DNA of 4,239 nt from a virus. Its lineage: Duplodnaviria > Heunggongvirae > Uroviricota > Caudoviricetes. The translations under genes were made by a program, and so were the position numbers. The stretch lies in the IMG/VR virus record IMGVR_UViG_2582580933_000014; one strand, given 5' to 3'. The notes under the pieces are model-generated. The model was not told the origin of the DNA and searched no databases. It saw nothing but the letters and a program-made list of their open reading frames with translations. Shown piece by piece: positions 1 through 4,239 of this stretch; the first letter of the stretch is position 1, and each line of letters opens with the position of its first letter.

Positions 1-46
1 TGATGACGCACCGGCGACAGGCTCGGGTGGTTTAACAATTACAGAT

Positions 47-700
47 GTGATGGCTGCGCAGGGGATGGTGCAGTCGAAAGCACCGCTTGGGTTTGCCTTA
101 TTCCTGGCAAAAGTTGGTGTTCAGGATCCTCAGTTTGCGATTGAAGGTCTGCTCAATTACGCGATGGCACTGGATAACCCGACATTGAACAAATTGAGTG
201 AAGAAACCCGGCTACAGATCATTCCTTACCTTGTGAATTTTGCCTTTGCTGATTATTCCAGGTCTGCGGCAAGTAAGGCTCGCTGTGAGCATTGTGCTGG
301 TACTGGATTTCATAATGTATTGCGCGAAGTGGTGAAACACTCCAGAAGCGGGGAGTCTGTTATCAAGGAAGAGTGGGTGAAGGAACTATGTCAGCATTGT
401 CATGGTAAGGGAGAAGTCAGCACAGCGTGCAGAGGGTGTAAGGGTAAAGGTATTGTCCTGGATGAAAAAAGAACCCGGCTTCATGGCACGCCTGTTTATA
501 AGATTTGTGGGCGTTGCAATGGAAACCGGTTTAGCCGTTTACCAACCACACTGGCGCGGCTTCATGTCCAGAAGCTGGTACCAGACCTGACGGATTATCA
601 GTGGTACAAAGGATATGCAGATGTCATTGATAAACTGGTTACAAAGTGCTGGCAGGAGGAAGCTTACGCTGAAGCACAATTGAGAAGGGTGACGAGATAA
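47..700 (+). CDS. Q-like late-gene antiterminator (candidate), carrying four CxxCxGxG cysteine repeats; the reading frame is open to the window start, so the true start may lie upstream
   Basis: 217-aa ORF ending TAA at 698-700. Four CxxC motifs each followed by Gly-rich residues (CEHCAGTG, CQHCHGKG, CRGCKGKG, CGRCNGN), a DnaJ-type zinc-finger pattern. Position directly upstream of a promoter/terminator leader and a lysis cassette matches the lambda Q - pR' - tR' - lysis layout. Assignment is by context and motifs, not by a homology search. No convincing Shine-Dalgarno before GTG 47 or ATG 50. Confidence 0.55.
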   Translation: MMAAQGMVQSKAPLGFALFLAKVGVQDPQFAIEGLLNYAMALDNPTLNKLSEETRLQIIPYLVNFAFADYSRSAASKARCEHCAGTGFHNVLREVVKHSRSGESVIKEEWVKELCQHCHGKGEVSTACRGCKGKGIVLDEKRTRLHGTPVYKICGRCNGNRFSRLPTTLARLHVQKLVPDLTDYQWYKGYADVIDKLVTKCWQEEAYAEAQLRRVTR

Positions 701-731: not shown

Positions 732-760
732 TTGTGTTTCTCAAAAAATATGGATAAGAT
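732..760 (+). promoter_or_regulatory. Putative sigma70 late promoter (pR'-like): TTGTGT - 17 bp - TAAGAT
   Basis: -35-like TTGTGT at 732-737 and -10-like TAAGAT at 755-760 with a 17-bp spacer, 30 bp after the stop of the Q-like gene. Predicted start near 767 would give a leader of roughly 60-65 nt ending at the terminator at 808-831. Motif match only. Confidence 0.3.
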
Positions 761-804: not shown

Positions 805-807
805 ACG

Positions 808-831
808 ACCTCGCTATTGCGAGGTTTTTTT
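808..831 (+). terminator. Rho-independent terminator (tR'-like)
   Basis: Stem ACCTCGC (808-814), loop TATT (815-818), stem GCGAGGT (819-825), running into 7 T (825-831); a second T-run follows at 836-842. Classic GC-rich hairpin plus U-tract. Confidence 0.6.
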
Positions 832-868
832 ATGGTTTTTTTCTATTCAATCTACATCAAAATCAATG

Positions 869-877
869 TGTTATAAT
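869..877 (+). promoter_or_regulatory. Candidate extended -10 promoter element (TGtTATAAT) for the moron gene at 915
   Basis: TG at 869-870, consensus TATAAT at 872-877, downstream of the terminator and 38 bp upstream of the ATG at 915. No good -35 was seen, which extended -10 promoters can tolerate. Confidence 0.3.
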
Positions 878-914
878 GTTTTCTGTAAAACAACATTAAA
901 AACAGGAGAACATT

Positions 915-1184
915 ATGAAACTGACCTCTATCCATCTTGAAATACTACGTCGAGTGAATGAATTGCAGCCAAAGGATTCTAGAATTCAGGCTGCATCATT
1001 ACCTCATCTCTCAGCAAAAGAGGTTAATTTTGCTATTTCAGATCTTGCTGATATAGGTTTTATCGATGTTATACGAAGCAAATCTGCCGAAGGTGGATTG
1101 ATTGCTAATGAGATAACGTCAAAAGGTTTTGCTTTTTTGAGTGAGATTGGCGCTGAAAAAAATTCATCGATGAGCACTCATTGA
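915..1184 (+). CDS. Small (89 aa) hypothetical protein with a winged-helix-like pattern; possible DNA-binding regulator
   Basis: ATG at 915 preceded by a strong Shine-Dalgarno AGGAGA (903-908). No transmembrane segment. Alternating hydrophobic periodicity (HLEILRRVNEL ... LSAKEVNFAISDLADIGFIDVIRSKSAEGGLIANEITSKGFAFL) resembles helix-turn-helix plus beta-wing, judged by eye. AT-rich composition unlike the flanking phage genes. Confidence 0.6.
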   Translation: MKLTSIHLEILRRVNELQPKDSRIQAASLPHLSAKEVNFAISDLADIGFIDVIRSKSAEGGLIANEITSKGFAFLSEIGAEKNSSMSTH

Positions 1185-1198
1185 TTTCTGCTTCAATC

Positions 1199-1216
1199 GG
1201 CTGCCAATTGGCAGCC
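1199..1216 (+). promoter_or_regulatory. Perfect 18-bp palindrome GGCTGCCAATTGGCAGCC (operator-like site or terminator-less stem-loop)
   Basis: GGCTGCCAA is the exact reverse complement of TTGGCAGCC. Lies 15 bp after the stop of the 915..1184 gene and is not followed by a T-run. Confidence 0.45.
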
Positions 1217-1381
1217 TAAACTGTAAAGTGAATTTAAAATCGCCTACAATTGATGCTTAAATTTTGTTCTGTATCATCTGCAGGTTTAGGGATATCACAG
1301 TAGCTTTCTGACAAGAAGAGTTCTTTTCTTCTACCAATGAAGTGGTTATGTTAACCTGCGCTAAATCGAGACTGGTGCGGA

Positions 1382-2188
1382 GTGGAATCGAAAGTGTCAT
1401 ATTTTTACAGAAGCAAGAATATTTCAGGTGTTTCTATAAATGAAGATAGCTTGATTAGCTTAAGCACGGCAATTGTCGAACGCTGCGTTAAAATGAATGA
1501 GCAAGCTCAAAAGGAAAGTAGGGAAGTTTGTGCTCAATGTGTTTTTTTTATTTTGTTCGATGGTAAGGGATATAAAGTTGATTCTATCGGTGAGCTTGTG
1601 AAATACTTTAGACAGGCCACTAGGATTGATCAAATAATTTTTACTATTGAAACTTATCAAAGTCGACAGTCTAACAGGATGAATGGATCTTGGATGGAGC
1701 TACGAATTGATGAGAGGAATTCAAATAGCAGCACAATGATTGTAGCATCGGAAGATAATGAGTGGGTTGACTCGTTATGGATTACGATTCAGGATTTACT
1801 TAACAAGTGCAAAAATAAATTTAGATTTTTTAGAACAGCTTGGACTATGTTAAGTATCCAGATTTCAGGTGTGACAGTTGGCTTTTTGCTTAGCTTATGG
1901 ACAGCCTCAAAACTGGCGCCAAAACTATCAATCGATGGTGCATTTGCTTTATCATTTATTTGTATCTTTATTTTGTTTTCGAACTTATGGAGCTTTGCTA
2001 TTCCATTAATAATTAAGCTTATCGACTTTTTGTTTCCTAGTGTTAAGTTTGTTATTAATGGTAAAAATTACTTTCACTGGAGTGTCCAGGCTATAATTGG
2101 AGCGATTGCCAGTGCGGTTATATTATATTTTATTAGCTCCATGTTGCTTTTTGCATTAGAAATGTTAAATAGCATCATTAAGAAATAG
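1382..2188 (+). CDS. Hypothetical membrane protein: soluble N-terminal domain (about 150 aa) plus about three C-terminal transmembrane helices; start codon uncertain
   Basis: 807-nt ORF, TAG stop at 2186-2188. Hydrophobic stretches ISGVTVGFLLSLWTASKLA, GAFALSFICIFILFSNLWSFAIPLIIKLI and VQAIIGAIASAVILYFISSMLLFALEML in the C-terminal third. Possible starts are GTG 1382, GTG 1394 or ATG 1493, none with a strong Shine-Dalgarno. A -35/-10-like pair TTGATG (1250-1255) - 16 bp - TATCAT (1272-1277) sits upstream. Strongly AT-rich. Confidence 0.6.
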   Translation: MESKVSYFYRSKNISGVSINEDSLISLSTAIVERCVKMNEQAQKESREVCAQCVFFILFDGKGYKVDSIGELVKYFRQATRIDQIIFTIETYQSRQSNRMNGSWMELRIDERNSNSSTMIVASEDNEWVDSLWITIQDLLNKCKNKFRFFRTAWTMLSIQISGVTVGFLLSLWTASKLAPKLSIDGAFALSFICIFILFSNLWSFAIPLIIKLIDFLFPSVKFVINGKNYFHWSVQAIIGAIASAVILYFISSMLLFALEMLNSIIKK

Positions 2189-2221
2189 TTAATGAATTAG
2201 TTATAATTACATCAATTCTAT

Positions 2222-2245
2222 GGCTGCCAAATGGTGGCCTTTTTT
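2222..2245 (+). terminator. Rho-independent terminator closing the moron
   Basis: Imperfect hairpin GGCTGCC AAAT GGTGGCC (2222-2239; 7-bp stem with two G-U pairs) followed by TTTTTT (2240-2245). Matches the upstream palindrome at 1199-1216 at 15 of 18 positions. Confidence 0.5.
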
Positions 2246-2296
2246 ATTCCTCTCATTTCTATTTCTGAGAGGACTCACTGCAATAAGAGGTGGCTA

Positions 2297-2683
2297 ATGT
2301 CCGATCCGATTTCCGGCACAGGGTTAGCTGGTGGAGCCCTAACGGGCGCTAGTATTTATGGACTGCTGACCGGAACTGATTACGGCGTTGTATTTGGCGC
2401 ATTTGCAGGGGCTGTATTCTATATAGCAACAGCAGCAGATCTGAGTGCATCGCGTCGACTGGCATATTTTATCGTGTCATATATTGCTGGGATCCTTTGC
2501 TCTGGGTTGGTTGGCTCCAAGCTGGCAAACTTGACCGGATACAGTGATAAACCTCTGGATGCTATTGGTGCCGTAATCGTCTCTGCTTTAGCCGTTAAAA
2601 TCCTGACGTTCCTGAATAATCAGGATATCGGCTCGCTGGTGGCGCTCATAACGCGCCGGGGAGGTTCAGGTGGAGCTAAATGA
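2297..2683 (+). CDS. Holin-like small membrane protein, first gene of the lysis cassette
   Basis: ATG at 2297 preceded by Shine-Dalgarno AAGAGGTGG (2285-2293); TGA stop at 2681-2683. 128 aa, Gly/Ala-rich with several hydrophobic helices (GVVFGAFAGAVFYIATAA, LAYFIVSYIAGILCSGLVG, AIGAVIVSALAVKILTFL) and a charged C-terminal tail. Lies directly upstream of the endolysin. The ORF-track start at ATG 2231 is inside the terminator hairpin and is considered spurious. Confidence 0.55.
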   Translation: MSDPISGTGLAGGALTGASIYGLLTGTDYGVVFGAFAGAVFYIATAADLSASRRLAYFIVSYIAGILCSGLVGSKLANLTGYSDKPLDAIGAVIVSALAVKILTFLNNQDIGSLVALITRRGGSGGAK

Positions 2684-2951
2684 CCCGACAGCAACTATTA
2701 ATGCGCTGTTATGTGCTTGTGTTGTTATTACTCTGATGTTTTATCGTCGTGGTGATTCGCGGCATCGTCCTTGGGTTTCACGTTTAGCCTGGCTGATTAC
2801 TGTTACATACAGTGCTGTTCCGTTGGCCTATCTCTGTGGGATTTATCCTCACTCCTCATGGCTCATTATCGTGGCGAATACTATTTTTCTTTCCGTGCTG
2901 GTGGCCGTCAGAGGCAACGTTGCACGTTTGGTTGATCATCTGAGGCACTAA
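2670..2951 (+). CDS. Second small membrane protein (93 aa, about three transmembrane helices); holin, antiholin or lysis-accessory protein
   Basis: GTG at 2670 preceded by Shine-Dalgarno GGGGAGG (2658-2664). Overlaps the upstream gene end and its TAA stop overlaps the endolysin ATG (TAATG at 2949-2953), indicating translational coupling inside the lysis cassette. Hydrophobic segments INALLCACVVITLMFY, LAWLITVTYSAVPLAYLCGIY and WLIIVANTIFLSVLVAV. Confidence 0.5.
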   Translation: MELNDPTATINALLCACVVITLMFYRRGDSRHRPWVSRLAWLITVTYSAVPLAYLCGIYPHSSWLIIVANTIFLSVLVAVRGNVARLVDHLRH

Positions 2952-3565
2952 TGAACCAACAATTATTTCAAAAGGCGGCTGGTATTAGTGCCGGGCTGGC
3001 TGCGCGCTGGTTTCCGCACATTGATGCGGCGATGAAGGAATTCGGCATTACAGTACCCGCGGATCAGGCAATGTTTATCGCTCAGGTAGGCCATGAGTCG
3101 ATGGGGTTTAGCGCCGTAGTTGAAAATTTTAACTACACACCATCTGCGCTGGTGGCGACGTTCGGAAAGAGGATCACACAGCAGCAGGCTGATGCCCTTG
3201 GCAGAACATCCGGACATGCAGCTCGTCAGGATGCTATTGCCAATCTGGTGTATAGCAACCGACTGGGTAACAAAGCCCCCGGTGATGGCTGGAAATATCG
3301 TGGTAGAGGATTAATTCAAATCACTGGCCTCCATAATTATCGCATCTGTGGTGCGGCGCTGAAGTTAGATCTGGTGACTTCACCTGAACAACTGGAACAG
3401 GAGCTACAGGCGGCGCGCTCAGCTGCATGGTTCTACACCTCTAAAGGCTGCATGATCTACGGTGCCGATATTAACCGTGTTACGCGCATCATTAACGGCG
3501 GTCTGAACGGTATTGAGGATCGTAAGGTCCGATACAACAAGGCGCGGGCGGCGCTGCTGGTATGA
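2951..3565 (+). CDS. Phage endolysin, glycoside hydrolase family 19 (chitinase-like lysozyme)
   Basis: 204 aa. The motifs FIAQVGHESMGF...VVENFNY and YRGRGLIQITGLHNY look like GH19 signatures, with two Glu residues (E49, E58) nine positions apart as expected for the catalytic pair in phage GH19 endolysins; this is from memory of the family, not a search. No hydrophobic N-terminal signal-anchor, so release is presumably holin-dependent. Start overlaps the upstream stop; Shine-Dalgarno GAGG at 2942-2945. Confidence 0.88.
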   Translation: MNQQLFQKAAGISAGLAARWFPHIDAAMKEFGITVPADQAMFIAQVGHESMGFSAVVENFNYTPSALVATFGKRITQQQADALGRTSGHAARQDAIANLVYSNRLGNKAPGDGWKYRGRGLIQITGLHNYRICGAALKLDLVTSPEQLEQELQAARSAAWFYTSKGCMIYGADINRVTRIINGGLNGIEDRKVRYNKARAALLV

Positions 3566-3954
3566 AGATGAGTTATTGGGCGCTCATTTTAACGTTTATT
3601 GCTTGTGTTGCTGGTGGTCTTGTCTGGTCAGCGAATCACTATCATGGAAAGTTTCTGGAGGAGCAGAAGCGTGCTGACGCTGCGGAACAGAGAGCTGATT
3701 CTACTGAGGCTATCACCGCGAATGTTCTGCGTACTATGGCAATAACGAACATCATTCAGGAGGCGAATCAACATGCAAAACAGCAGATCGCACTGGAGTC
3801 ACAGAGAACCCAGGAATATATCAAAGTGGCTGTTGCGAGTGATGATTGCGCTTCACGTCCTGTGCCTGCTACCGCTGCTGACCGGTTGCGGAAGTACGCG
3901 GACAGTTTACGTGAACATTCCGGCGGCACCACTGCCAGCCAGCCTGACTTCTGA
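3562..3954 (+). CDS. Rz-like inner-membrane spanin (i-spanin)
   Basis: ATG overlaps the endolysin stop (ATGA at 3562-3565). 130 aa with an N-terminal transmembrane helix (YWALILTFIACVAGGLVW) followed by a charged, Gln/Ala/Glu-rich helical periplasmic domain; sits in the Rz position after the endolysin. Confidence 0.8.
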   Translation: MKMSYWALILTFIACVAGGLVWSANHYHGKFLEEQKRADAAEQRADSTEAITANVLRTMAITNIIQEANQHAKQQIALESQRTQEYIKVAVASDDCASRPVPATAADRLRKYADSLREHSGGTTASQPDF

Positions 3955-4120
3955 AACACCGATTCCAATTATACCCAGTTCACTGACATATGGTGCTAGT
4001 CTGGAGTTGAATGTGGCTCTGTTGTCAGCGTTAGGACAATGTAATTTTGATAAAACCGGAATCAGAAATATTGAATCACGGCGCGCTATTTTGCATTCAA
4101 AGTATAAATATCCAGAGTGA
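3842..4120 (+). CDS. Rz1-like outer-membrane lipoprotein spanin (o-spanin), overlapping the 3' end of the Rz-like gene in another frame
   Basis: Internal ATG at 3842 of the 3773..4120 ORF gives MIALHVLCLLPLLTGC with lipobox LLTGC, followed by a Pro-rich region (NIPAAPLPASLTSETPIPIIP). Overlaps the last 113 nt of the Rz-like gene and extends 166 nt past it. At 92 aa it is long for an o-spanin, and both the start and the C-terminal tail are uncertain. Confidence 0.6.
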   Translation: MIALHVLCLLPLLTGCGSTRTVYVNIPAAPLPASLTSETPIPIIPSSLTYGASLELNVALLSALGQCNFDKTGIRNIESRRAILHSKYKYPE

Positions 4121-4239
4121 TGTTATTTATTATAAAGATATGATGCATAAAGTTTAGGTGCTCCAGCTTCTATAGTGTAATGTAAAAGCTTATAGACTGG
4201 CCCCCTGAATCTCCAGACAACCAATATCACTTATTTAAG

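What the first reader, a model, noticed from the sequence alone, without database searches (positions are those of the whole stretch)
840..2250. AT-rich two-gene moron inserted between the Q/late-promoter region and the lysis cassette
The segment from about 840 to 2250 is visibly AT-rich (roughly one-third G+C by eye) while the Q-like gene and the lysis genes are near 50% G+C. It is bracketed by intrinsic terminators at 808-831 and 2222-2245 and has its own promoter-like elements, which is the classic promoter-gene-terminator moron layout. The Q-to-holin junction is the locus where Stx phages carry stx and where other lambdoid prophages carry lysogenic-conversion or anti-phage cargo. Neither encoded protein (a small winged-helix-like protein and an N-soluble/C-membrane protein) was recognised as a known family from sequence alone, so this is the most likely place for an undescribed defence, exclusion or toxin module.
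Basis: partly seen in the sequence, partly recalled or inferred. Interest (0 to 1): 0.85.

Follow-up and report, generated by a model that had tools for sequence, protein, structure and literature searches.

The report
Two stacked prophage cargo genes
An AT-rich insert between a prophage's late-gene switch and its lysis genes holds two unrelated, separately mobile cargo genes of untested function: a small DNA-binding-like protein, and a membrane protein of an uncharacterised family that elsewhere travels as integron cassettes.

Summary
Window 832-2255 is 35% G+C against 49% in the flanks. It is bracketed by two real intrinsic terminators and sits between antiterminator Q and the holin of an E. 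coli prophage. Phages with about 95%-identical flanks carry a different gene in the same slot.

The "two-gene module" reading does not hold. Each gene occurs alone elsewhere.
- ORF1 (915-1184, 89 aa) is a borderline MarR-like winged helix. In Klebsiella and Citrobacter prophages its relatives are the only gene between Q and the holin.
- ORF2 (1394-2188, 264 aa) recurs directly before the holin in other prophage backbones, with different upstream neighbours.
- More distant ORF2 relatives sit in unrelated bacteria with no conserved partner. In 7 distinct loci they are integron cassettes with canonical attC sites.

ORF2 belongs to a rare family (230 representative clusters) with no Pfam, NCBIfam, PADLOC or PDB match. 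A confident model (pLDDT 94) shows a cytoplasmic α/β domain joined to three transmembrane helices.

The function is not shown. My best guess (about 0.4) is an autonomous membrane-acting phage-exclusion or abortive-infection protein. This is a classic moron layout carrying an uncharacterised but testable protein family.

The parts
1..700 (+). Antiterminator Q gene (lambda-Q family, ydfT-like); its 5' end lies outside the window
   Evidence: Pfam PF03589, E 4.9e-49. RefSeq annotates a 753-nt 'antitermination protein' ending at window position 700.
732..760 (+). Putative late promoter pR' (TTGTGT, 17-nt spacer, TAAGAT). Inferred, not tested.
   Evidence: Read by eye from the sequence. The region is conserved in sal3 and SKA5. 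The consensus scan did not pick it up. Placement is by analogy with lambda pR'/tR' (my own knowledge).
807..833 (+). tR'-like intrinsic terminator, marking the left edge of the cargo slot
   Evidence: 8-bp stem plus U7; -13.7 kcal/mol, z -5.2. Conserved in sal3 and SKA5, and homology ends just after it.
846..877 (+). ORF1 promoter-like element with a perfect extended -10 (TGTTATAAT at 869-877)
   Evidence: Sequence. Nearly the same 32-mer precedes the Citrobacter ORF1 homologue; the Klebsiella homologues have TGGTAAAAT. Not tested experimentally.
915..1184 (+). ORF1, 89 aa: a small MarR-like winged-helix protein (borderline assignment)
   Evidence: Sub-threshold DUF2513 and HTH_45 hits; phrog_32916, unknown function. 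The family profile matches the MarR wHTH core in PDB: 3f3x E 1.1e-3, 2eb7 E 3e-3. dN/dS is 0.21 against the Citrobacter homologue.
1199..1217 (+). Stable hairpin with no U-tract; a degenerate copy of the 2222-2240 terminator hairpin that probably allows read-through into ORF2
   Evidence: 84% identical to 2222-2240; -14.9 kcal/mol, z -4.3, followed by UAAACUG. In Citrobacter the intact version, with a T-tract, terminates the ORF1 homologue directly before the holin.
1336..1342 (+). GTTATGT, the left edge of the conserved ORF2 module; possibly a relic of an integron-cassette core site
   Evidence: Homology among three prophage backbones starts here. L011 has an exact GTTATGC, the same core site that bounds the environmental cassettes. 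The relic interpretation is an inference.
1394..2188 (+). ORF2, 264 aa: an inner-membrane protein with a cytoplasmic alpha/beta domain (residues 1-140) and three transmembrane helices (149-177, 183-213, 226-263)
   Evidence: The start codon aligns with the ATG starts of homologues and with RefSeq. AF2 model pLDDT 94.2, pTM 0.84. Positive-inside topology holds across 101 sequences. dN/dS is 0.16. Family of 230 representative clusters. No Pfam, NCBIfam or PADLOC match, and nothing significant in PDB or BFVD.
2222..2245 (+). Intrinsic terminator closing the cargo, upstream of the holin
   Evidence: 7-bp stem plus U6; -11.4 kcal/mol, z -3.0. Conserved after ORF2 homologues in L011 and L007.
2255..2296 (+). 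Right junction, where homology with sal3 and SKA5 resumes (TCTGAGAGGAC...) through the holin ribosome-binding region
   Evidence: Alignment.
2297..4120 (+). Lysis cassette: holin 2297-2683, second holin-family gene 2670-2951, GH19 endolysin 2951-3565, Rz-like i-spanin 3562-3954, Rz1/LysC o-spanin within 3773-4120
   Evidence: Pfam PF16931, PF05449, PF00182 and PF23793. Annotations in related phages and in RefSeq agree.

Best explanation
Window 832-2255 is cargo in the variable slot between the Q-dependent late terminator and the holin of a lambdoid-type E. coli prophage. It is not one two-gene system. It is two independently mobile single-gene morons stacked head to tail.

Module 1 is an extended -10 promoter, ORF1 (a minimal MarR-like winged-helix protein) and a hairpin. 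In other enterobacterial prophages this module alone fills the slot.

Module 2 is ORF2 with its terminator. ORF2 is an autonomous inner-membrane protein with a cytoplasmic TBP-like alpha/beta domain fused to three transmembrane helices. Its family spreads as integron cassettes in environmental bacteria and as prophage morons in Enterobacteria.

In this arrangement the hairpin after ORF1 has lost its U-tract. In the lysogen, ORF1 and ORF2 are therefore probably co-transcribed from the ORF1 promoter. That transcript would end at 2222-2245 and be insulated from pR' by the terminator at 807-831. After induction, Q-modified polymerase should read through everything, so both genes would also be the first late genes expressed.

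Most likely function of ORF2 (inferred, not shown): a self-sufficient membrane effector that protects the lysogen from other phages. One version blocks genome entry. In the other, the cytoplasmic domain senses an infection cue and the conserved polar face of TM1 drives oligomerisation and membrane permeabilisation (abortive infection). ORF1 most likely binds DNA as a small regulator; its target is unknown.
For: Slot and moron anatomy:
- Q and the lysis genes are identified.
- sal3 and SKA5 share flanks at 95-96% identity but hold an unrelated 85-aa gene; the breakpoints are at about 831 and 2255.
- The terminators are verified and the composition is deviant.
- The cassette is in only 41 of 5426 complete E. 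coli genomes, while this Q type is nearly ubiquitous.

Independence of the two genes:
- ORF1-family genes are the only gene between Q and the holin across three Q families and several holin families.
- ORF2 homologues at 78%, 79% and 52% identity lie directly before the holin, with a methyltransferase and/or an unrelated small ORF upstream.
- Homologues at 30-40% identity in Methylobacter, Gallionella, Thiobacillus, Nitrospira and Bacteroidota MAGs have no conserved neighbour.

Autonomy and mobility of ORF2:
- In 8 of 26 environmental loci (7 distinct; background 39 of 1040) the gene is bounded by GTTATGC and GCATAAC and followed by a canonical attC palindrome.
- The gene is AT-richer than its surroundings in 17 of 18 loci and in 26 of 29 further loci.

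Both are real genes: dN/dS is 0.16 and 0.21.

Structure: confident model; N-in topology, a conserved TM1 face (Q156, G159, F164, S167, A171) and an SNxW motif in TM2; no catalytic-looking motif.

Prior for defence:
- Lambdoid morons encode defence proteins (PMC11364771).
- At least a third of unknown mobile-integron cassettes conferred phage resistance, and about a third of those proteins have TM helices (bioRxiv 10.1101/2024.07.02.601719).
- Some homologues sit beside DpdE, an NsnA/PD-T4-2-like gene with HEPN, and toxin-antitoxin pairs.
Against: - No functional data of any kind exist.
- No PADLOC model matches either protein.
- Most neighbours of the environmental homologues are housekeeping genes. 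Recognised defence or TA genes lie within 5 kb in only 4 of the 16 loci surveyed. Enrichment is weak and was not tested statistically.
- The promoter assignments are consensus-based only, and promoter-like sites are not enriched in the window.
- In E. coli the two genes are always found together (41 of 41 genomes, at least 99% identical). A functional interaction in this particular arrangement therefore cannot be excluded.
- The enterobacterial clade has lost three charged residues that are near-invariant elsewhere (D7, R54, R80), so its activity may differ from the cassette clade.
- AFDB could not be searched, so a structurally similar annotated family may exist.
Confidence: 0.4

Rival explanations
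1. ORF2 provides a lysogenic-conversion or fitness function unrelated to phage. Examples are an orphan immunity protein against a membrane-acting bacteriocin or contact-dependent toxin, an envelope-stress or transport-related factor, or a host-interaction factor. It is carried as cargo in the same way as porins, Bor or Stx in this and neighbouring slots.
For: The same mobility evidence applies: prophage moron plus integron cassette, autonomous and AT-rich. Integron cassettes and morons carry many adaptive functions besides defence (my own knowledge of nmpC/lc, bor and stx). Most neighbours of environmental homologues are housekeeping genes. No defence model matches. A polytopic inner-membrane protein of this size is compatible with an immunity protein (inference).
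Against: No similarity to any known immunity, transporter or virulence family. The large conserved cytoplasmic domain is not typical of small pore-forming-colicin immunity proteins (my own knowledge). No toxin gene is linked to it in any locus examined.
Confidence: 0.27
2. One reading: ORF1 and ORF2 form one obligate two-gene system, such as a wHTH regulator or antitoxin with a membrane toxin or effector, acquired as a unit.
For: In E. coli the two are always together and nearly identical. They are co-oriented, share one flanking terminator, and the intervening hairpin lacks a U-tract, so co-transcription is likely. A small wHTH protein upstream of an effector is a common layout (my own knowledge).
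Against: ORF1 relatives occur alone in the slot in many prophages. ORF2 relatives occur without any ORF1-like gene in prophages, chromosomes and integron cassettes. The small ORFs upstream of other ORF2 homologues are unrelated to ORF1 (hhalign probability 0.1%). L007 and L008 differ by presence or absence of the methyltransferase with the same ORF2 homologue. The spacer is 209 nt, not the tight coupling usual for TA pairs.
Confidence: 0.1
3. ORF2 is an accessory lysis protein (antiholin, holin regulator or lysis-timing factor) that belongs functionally to the lysis cassette.
For: In every enterobacterial prophage examined it is the gene immediately upstream of the holin, on the same strand. 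It is a multi-TM inner-membrane protein. Under Q antitermination it would be co-expressed with the holin.
Against: A functional terminator separates it from the holin. It is paired with different holin families (PF16931 and PF04971). Phages with about 95%-identical lysis genes lack it. No isolated phage in a 50,697-genome collection encodes it. Most family members are in non-phage contexts, including integron cassettes. It matches no holin or lysis family in Pfam or PHROGs.
Confidence: 0.07
4. The cargo has no current benefit. It is selfish or decaying hitch-hiking DNA maintained by linkage to the prophage.
For: It is rare in E. coli (41 of 5426 genomes) and nearly clonal there. The function is unknown.
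Against: Both genes are under purifying selection over long divergence (dN/dS 0.16 and 0.21). The full-length architecture is conserved in about 230 clusters across phyla. The gene has been captured repeatedly by integrons and by different prophage backbones.
Confidence: 0.06

Closest known systems
Lambdoid 'morons' and lysogenic-conversion cargo in the Q-to-holin slot (stx in Stx phages; nmpC/lc porin genes in DLP12 and PA-2; the latter from my own knowledge)
   Same: Same position, downstream of pR'/tR' and upstream of the holin. Same promoter-gene-terminator layout, deviant base composition and presence/absence polymorphism between otherwise near-identical phages. Dual expression is expected, in the lysogen and under Q control.
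   Different: The encoded proteins have no similarity to any known cargo. Here two unrelated morons are stacked, and the second shares ancestry with integron cassettes.
Prophage membrane proteins for superinfection exclusion or abortive infection (HK97 gp15, P22 SieA, lambda RexB, T4 Imm; lactococcal AbiZ)
   Same: Prophage or moron-encoded inner-membrane proteins that act without enzymatic domains. This is what ORF2 would 'work like' under the best explanation (PMC11364771 cites gp15 and AbiZ).
   Different: No sequence similarity: the only PHROG matches are families of unknown function and there is no PADLOC hit. ORF2 has a 140-residue cytoplasmic domain that those small proteins lack. The function is untested.
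Integron gene cassettes of unknown function that confer phage resistance (BRiCs; bioRxiv 10.1101/2024.07.02.601719)
   Same: One clade of ORF2 homologues consists of single-ORF cassettes with canonical attC sites. About a third of BRiC proteins contain TM helices.
   Different: The window copy is not a cassette: it has no attC, only a possible GTTATGT relic at 1336-1342. No member of this family is reported as tested. I could not compare sequences with the published BRiC proteins.
MarR-family winged-helix regulators and DUF2513 (for ORF1)
   Same: The ORF1 family profile aligns with the wHTH core, including the recognition helix and wing, of MarR structures 3f3x and 2eb7. Weak DUF2513 hits recur in three family members.
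   Different: All hits are below curated thresholds. At 79-89 aa, ORF1 lacks the N- and C-terminal dimerisation helices of MarR proteins. The single-sequence structure model was uninformative (pLDDT 54).
TBP-like alpha/beta folds (AdoMetDC, BDI_3606 'TBP-like protein', DUF4468, RnlA NRD domain, PGM C-terminal domain)
   Different: The scores are low, sequence identity is 3-10%, and no functional residues are shared. None of these proteins is fused to a three-helix membrane anchor. Foldseek found nothing at E <= 1e-3 in PDB or BFVD.

Membership tests
Lambdoid moron / cargo of the Q-holin slot | Lies between the Q-dependent late terminator and the holin | tested here: met
   Q (PF03589) ends at 700, the terminator is at 807-833 and the holin (PF16931) starts at 2297.
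Lambdoid moron / cargo of the Q-holin slot | Dispensable: absent or replaced in otherwise closely related phages | tested here: met
   sal3 and SKA5 have 95-96% identical flanks and an unrelated 85-aa ORF in the slot. The cassette is in 41 of 5426 E. coli genomes.
Lambdoid moron / cargo of the Q-holin slot | Own transcription terminator | tested here: met
   2222-2245: -11.4 kcal/mol plus U6; conserved after ORF2 homologues.
Lambdoid moron / cargo of the Q-holin slot | Own promoter active in the lysogen | tested here: inconclusive
   A perfect extended -10 (TGTTATAAT, 869-877) is conserved in the Citrobacter homologue module. Consensus sites are not enriched and there are no expression data.
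Lambdoid moron / cargo of the Q-holin slot | Base composition unlike the surrounding phage genes | tested here: met
   0.35 against 0.49 G+C.
Obligate two-gene module (TA-like, or regulator plus effector) | The two genes co-occur across divergent relatives | tested here: not met
   ORF1 relatives occur alone. ORF2 relatives occur with other neighbours or none.
Obligate two-gene module (TA-like, or regulator plus effector) | Tight translational or operonic coupling | tested here: not met
   A 209-nt spacer containing a stable hairpin separates the genes. Co-transcription is still plausible.
Integron gene cassette | Single ORF followed by an attC site, with R'' complementary to the core site at the cassette's 5' boundary | tested here: met
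   Met for 8 of 26 environmental homologue loci, 7 of them distinct (GTTATGC ... GCATAAC plus a 55-105-nt palindrome ending in GTTRnnn), against 39 of 1040 background. This applies to the homologues, not to the window copy.
Integron gene cassette | attC present at the window copy | tested here: not met
   No GCATAAC or attC palindrome follows the stop codon at 2188. Only GTTATGT at 1336-1342 resembles a core site.
Known anti-phage defence systems (PADLOC-DB v2) | Profile match to any component model | tested here: not met
   No families match either protein at E <= 1.
Holin, antiholin or spanin lysis proteins | Profile match, or constant association with one lysis cassette type | tested here: not met
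   No Pfam or PHROG lysis family matches. ORF2 homologues are associated with two holin families or with none.
MarR-family wHTH (ORF1) | Significant profile match to the winged-helix DNA-binding core | tested here: inconclusive
   Family profile against PDB: 3f3x E 1.1e-3, 2eb7 E 3e-3, covering the wHTH core. Pfam hits are below gathering thresholds. The AF2 model was poor.
MarR-family wHTH (ORF1) | Flanking dimerisation helices (about 140-150 aa in total) | tested here: not met
   Family members are 79-89 aa and align only to residues 33-107 of a 144-aa MarR.
Membrane-acting phage exclusion or abortive infection (function, not homology) | Reduces infection by other phages when expressed alone | not testable with these tools
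   Requires plaque and liquid-infection assays.

The most novel reading that the evidence does not exclude
ORF2 founds a previously unrecognised family of single-protein, membrane-embedded anti-phage effectors: a cytoplasmic TBP-like sensor domain fused to a three-helix pore or anchor. The family is disseminated by two different capture systems, integron cassettes in environmental Proteobacteria, Nitrospirae and Bacteroidota and the Q-holin moron slot of enterobacterial prophages. The prophage copies would descend from a captured cassette, with the GTTATG core-site relic at the module's left edge as the trace.
Probability: 0.3. Interest if true: 0.7.

Novelty: new member of a known kind. Interest (0 to 1): 0.5.

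Why it matters
The Q-to-holin slot is where lambdoid prophages carry Shiga toxin and other conversion genes, so unknown cargo there deserves attention. This work turns a vague "two hypothetical proteins" locus into a defined experiment.

- ORF2 is a compact, autonomous, confidently modelled membrane protein of a cross-phylum family with no annotation.
- Both integrons and prophages have picked it up repeatedly, which is a sign of a portable adaptive trait.
- If it blocks phage, it adds a new single-gene defence family and a concrete example of gene flow between integron cassettes and prophage morons.
- If it does not, it is still a useful marker of how terminator hairpins serve as junctions when cargo is shuffled.
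- For annotation, it shows that ORF1-type genes are a recurrent "first late gene" of enterobacterial prophages.

Tried and rejected
- Rfam found nothing credible in the window.
- I considered a link between ORF2 homologues and ABC ATPases, seen in four loci. I rejected it because they are four different ABC types, on either strand, at a frequency expected by chance.
- I tested whether the 66-73-aa ORFs upstream of other ORF2 homologues are remote ORF1 relatives. They are not.
- I considered the inverted repeat 868-883/906-921 over the ORF1 promoter and start codon as an operator. It is not conserved in the Citrobacter module (by inspection), so I dropped it.
- My first two attC detectors were wrongly designed and found nothing. 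The correct test compares the core site upstream of the gene with the inverse core at its stop codon.
- The methyltransferase-ORF2 synteny looked like a possible two-gene system. However, L007 carries the same ORF2 homologue without the methyltransferase.
- A literature search for the RefSeq accessions and PHROG identifiers found nothing. DUF2513 has no functional literature in the library.
Full report
**What is in the window**

The 4239-base window is the late-control and lysis region of an E. coli prophage.
- It begins inside an antiterminator Q gene (PF03589, E 4.9e-49) that ends at 700.
- After the AT-rich block come a holin (PF16931, 2297-2683), a second holin-family gene (PF05449, 2670-2951) and a GH19 endolysin (2951-3565).
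- These are followed by an Rz-like gene (3562-3954) and an overlapping Rz1/LysC lipoprotein gene within 3773-4120.
- In strain F9792, an exact match, the region lies in a prophage with integrase, LexA-like repressor, HK97-type head genes and a tail sheath.

**Checking the observation**

The G+C content drops to 0.30-0.39 between about 700 and 2300, against 0.47-0.53 elsewhere. The segment 832-2255 is 0.350 and the flanks are 0.487.

The stem at 807-826 plus U7 folds at -13.7 kcal/mol (z -5.2). The stem at 2222-2239 plus U6 folds at -11.4 kcal/mol (z -3.0).

Promoter-like consensus sites are not more frequent than in shuffled sequence, so that part of the observation rests on other evidence. 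A perfect extended -10, TGTTATAAT at 869-877, is conserved upstream of the Citrobacter ORF1 homologue.

**It is cargo in a variable slot**

Salmonella phage 118970_sal3 and Escherichia phage SKA5 match both flanks at 95-96% identity but lack the middle. Homology runs through the terminator at 807-831 and resumes at about 2255. Between those points they carry an unrelated 85-aa ORF (phrog_3501).

The cassette occurs in 41 of 5426 complete E. coli genomes, always chromosomal and at least 99% identical. This Q type is present in most genomes, with homology typically ending at about 785-830.

**The two genes are independent modules**

ORF1 (915-1184, 89 aa) has only enterobacterial relatives, about 28 clusters that are mostly 79 aa.
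- In two Klebsiella phages and in Klebsiella and Citrobacter prophages, this small gene is the only gene between Q and the holin.
- This holds across three Q families (PF03589, PF06323, PF06576/PF06530) and several holin families. No ORF2 homologue is nearby.

ORF2 homologues show the converse pattern.
- At 78-79% identity they follow an unknown 200-226-aa gene and an N6/N4 methyltransferase, directly before a PF16931 holin.
- At 52% identity they follow an unrelated 66-73-aa ORF, with or without the methyltransferase, before a PF04971 holin.
- That small ORF is not an ORF1 relative (hhalign probability 0.1%).

At 30-40% identity the ORF2 family appears in Methylobacter, Gallionella, Thiobacillus, Methyloversatilis, Moraxellaceae, Thiomicrorhabdus, Nitrospira, Methylophilaceae and Bacteroidota assemblies. 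There is no conserved neighbour there.

**How the two modules were joined**

The Citrobacter ORF1 module has the same promoter-like 32-mer as the window. It also has the same hairpin terminator (GGCTGCCATTTGGTGGCC followed by T's), placed directly before its holin.

In the window this hairpin occurs twice. A copy without a U-tract lies after ORF1 (1199-1217, -14.9 kcal/mol). The intact terminator lies after ORF2 (2222-2245). ORF2 therefore sits between two copies of a shared junction hairpin.

Because the first copy lacks a U-tract, read-through from the ORF1 promoter into ORF2 is likely. This is an inference. A 17-mer containing TATAAT is also repeated, at 861-877 and 2191-2207.

**What ORF2 is**

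The start codon is GTG 1394. It aligns with the ATG starts of divergent homologues and agrees with RefSeq.

An exhaustive profile search of 1.84 billion representatives found 230 family members at E <= 1e-3, 127 of them at E <= 1e-30. Nearly all are 255-270 aa and match over their full length.

None of 101 members matches any Pfam family. The window protein has no NCBIfam or PADLOC match, and its only PDB sequence match is a non-significant one (E = 4.4). Its only PHROG matches are to families of unknown function. No isolated phage among 50,697 records encodes it.

The AlphaFold model built on the 101-sequence alignment is confident (mean pLDDT 94.2, pTM 0.84). It shows an alpha/beta domain over residues 1-140 and three long helices at 149-177, 183-213 and 226-263.
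- Charge distribution across the family gives an N-in, C-out topology.
- Conservation is concentrated on one face of TM1 (Q156, G159, F164, S167, A171), on an S196-N197-x-W199 motif in TM2, and on P215/F219.
- A few soluble-domain residues are also conserved (D56, G59, W124). There is no catalytic-looking motif.

The gene is under purifying selection (dN/dS 0.16).

**ORF2 homologues are integron cassettes**

In the Gallionella contig the homologue lies in a run of small same-strand ORFs next to an "integron cassette protein" (PF21648).

A specific test compared the core site upstream of the gene with the inverse core at its stop codon. It was positive in 8 of 26 environmental loci, 7 of them distinct, against 39 of 1040 background windows.
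- GTTATGC lies 20-35 nt before the start codon.
- GCATAAC overlaps the stop codon.
- A 55-105-nt imperfect palindrome follows, ending in GTTAGCC, GTTACCT, GTTAACT or GTTAGGC. This is a canonical attC.

The homologues are AT-richer than their surroundings in 17 of 18 loci and in 26 of 29 further loci.

The homology shared by the three enterobacterial prophage modules begins at GTTATG(T/C) (window 1336-1342; an exact GTTATGC in L011). This may be a relic of a cassette boundary, which is an inference.

**What ORF1 is**

Pfam gives only sub-threshold DUF2513 and HTH_45 hits. A 20-sequence family profile matches the winged-helix core of MarR-family structures (3f3x E 1.1e-3; 2eb7 E 3e-3) but not their dimerisation helices.

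The single-sequence structure model was uninformative. dN/dS is 0.21. "Small winged-helix protein" is therefore plausible but borderline.

**Function**

Nothing here demonstrates a function. The case for an anti-phage role of ORF2 is contextual.
- It is an autonomous, horizontally mobile, AT-rich membrane protein carried by prophage morons and by integron cassettes.
- Lambdoid morons are known to carry defence genes (PMC11364771).
- In a screen of mobile-integron cassettes of unknown function, at least a third conferred phage resistance. About a third of those proteins contain transmembrane helices (bioRxiv 10.1101/2024.07.02.601719).
- Some homologues sit near DpdE, an NsnA/PD-T4-2-like gene with HEPN, and toxin-antitoxin pairs.

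Against this, most neighbours are housekeeping genes and no PADLOC model matches.

I put about 0.4 on a membrane-acting exclusion or abortive-infection role. I put about 0.27 on another portable adaptive function such as immunity to a membrane toxin. The obligate two-gene, lysis-accessory and no-function readings each get lower values.

**Verdict**

It is wrong about the unit, which is two stacked single-gene morons rather than one two-gene module.

The layout is classic. The interest lies in ORF2's uncharacterised, cross-phylum, cassette-borne family and in how easily it can be tested.

Noticed in passing
window 4193-4239: The last 47 bases match thousands of chromosomal and plasmid sites in E. 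coli. In one plasmid they lie immediately upstream of an IS3-family transposase gene, so the window ends in an IS3-family (IS2-like, from memory) terminal repeat. The best-matching genome aligns only to 4192, so the IS insertion is specific to the source genome or a few relatives.
   Followed up: partly
L001 1350-1607 and L002 1350-1607 (sal3, SKA5): The alternative occupant of the same slot is an 85-aa protein (phrog_3501, unknown function, no Pfam match). It is yet another uncharacterised 'first late gene'.
   Followed up: partly
L011 4886-6831; L052 3760-5696; L008 2541-4488: In other enterobacterial prophages the ORF2 homologue directly follows a PF01555 N6/N4 DNA methyltransferase. The methyltransferases are 74% identical where the ORF2 homologues are only 52% identical. 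L007 has the same ORF2 homologue without the methyltransferase, so the pairing is not obligatory, but the synteny is unexplained.
   Followed up: partly
L041 and L048, about 20-50 nt downstream of the ORF1 homologue (locus position about 3765-3790 in L041): The terminator after the Klebsiella ORF1 homologues (ACCTCGCTTCGGCGGGGTTTTTT) is the same hairpin type as the tR' terminator just after Q in sal3, SKA5 and the window (807-831). Terminator hairpins seem to be reused as recombination junctions between cargo modules.
   Followed up: no
window 861-877 and 2191-2207: A 17-mer ending in GTTATAAT (82% identical copies) lies both at the ORF1 promoter and between the ORF2 stop codon and the terminator. 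The second copy would be a promoter-like site firing straight into a terminator. It may be a remnant of module shuffling.
   Followed up: no
ORF2 residues 7, 54, 80 (window 1412-1414, 1553-1555, 1631-1633): D7, R54 and R80 are 85-94% conserved across the family but are S, L and Q in the window protein. D7 and R54 are also replaced in the 52%-identity prophage homologue P0006. This looks like coordinated loss of a charge network (D7 and R54 lie on strands 4-9 and 47-55 of the model; their contact was not checked), or functional divergence of the prophage clade.
   Followed up: partly
protein P0086: A 2105-aa protein matches profile positions 136-180 of ORF2 (the pre-TM1 helix plus TM1) in 24 separate stretches, E 1.2e-49. 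It appears to be a giant repeat protein built from this segment, or a low-complexity artefact.
   Followed up: no
window 389-526 (Q residues about 115-160): The Q protein carries CxxCxGxG zinc-finger repeats that score just below threshold for the DnaJ central domain (31.4 against 32.7 bits).
   Followed up: no
L003 14774-16052 compared with window 3562-4120: In strain F9792, which has an identical cassette, the genes after the endolysin are different hypothetical ORFs rather than the window's Rz/Rz1 pair. Only 5 genomes match at least 80% of the whole window, while 41 carry the cassette. The lysis cassette's 3' half is therefore also mosaic.
   Followed up: partly
L016 6500-9836: The Gallionella contig shows an array of small same-strand ORFs: a PF21648 'integron cassette protein', the ORF2 homologue, then ORFs of 133, 166, 148 and 136 aa. 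The first three intergenic gaps examined contain core-site-like motifs. No integrase was seen within the stretch examined, and a DpdE-like helicase lies about 4.5 kb downstream.
   Followed up: partly
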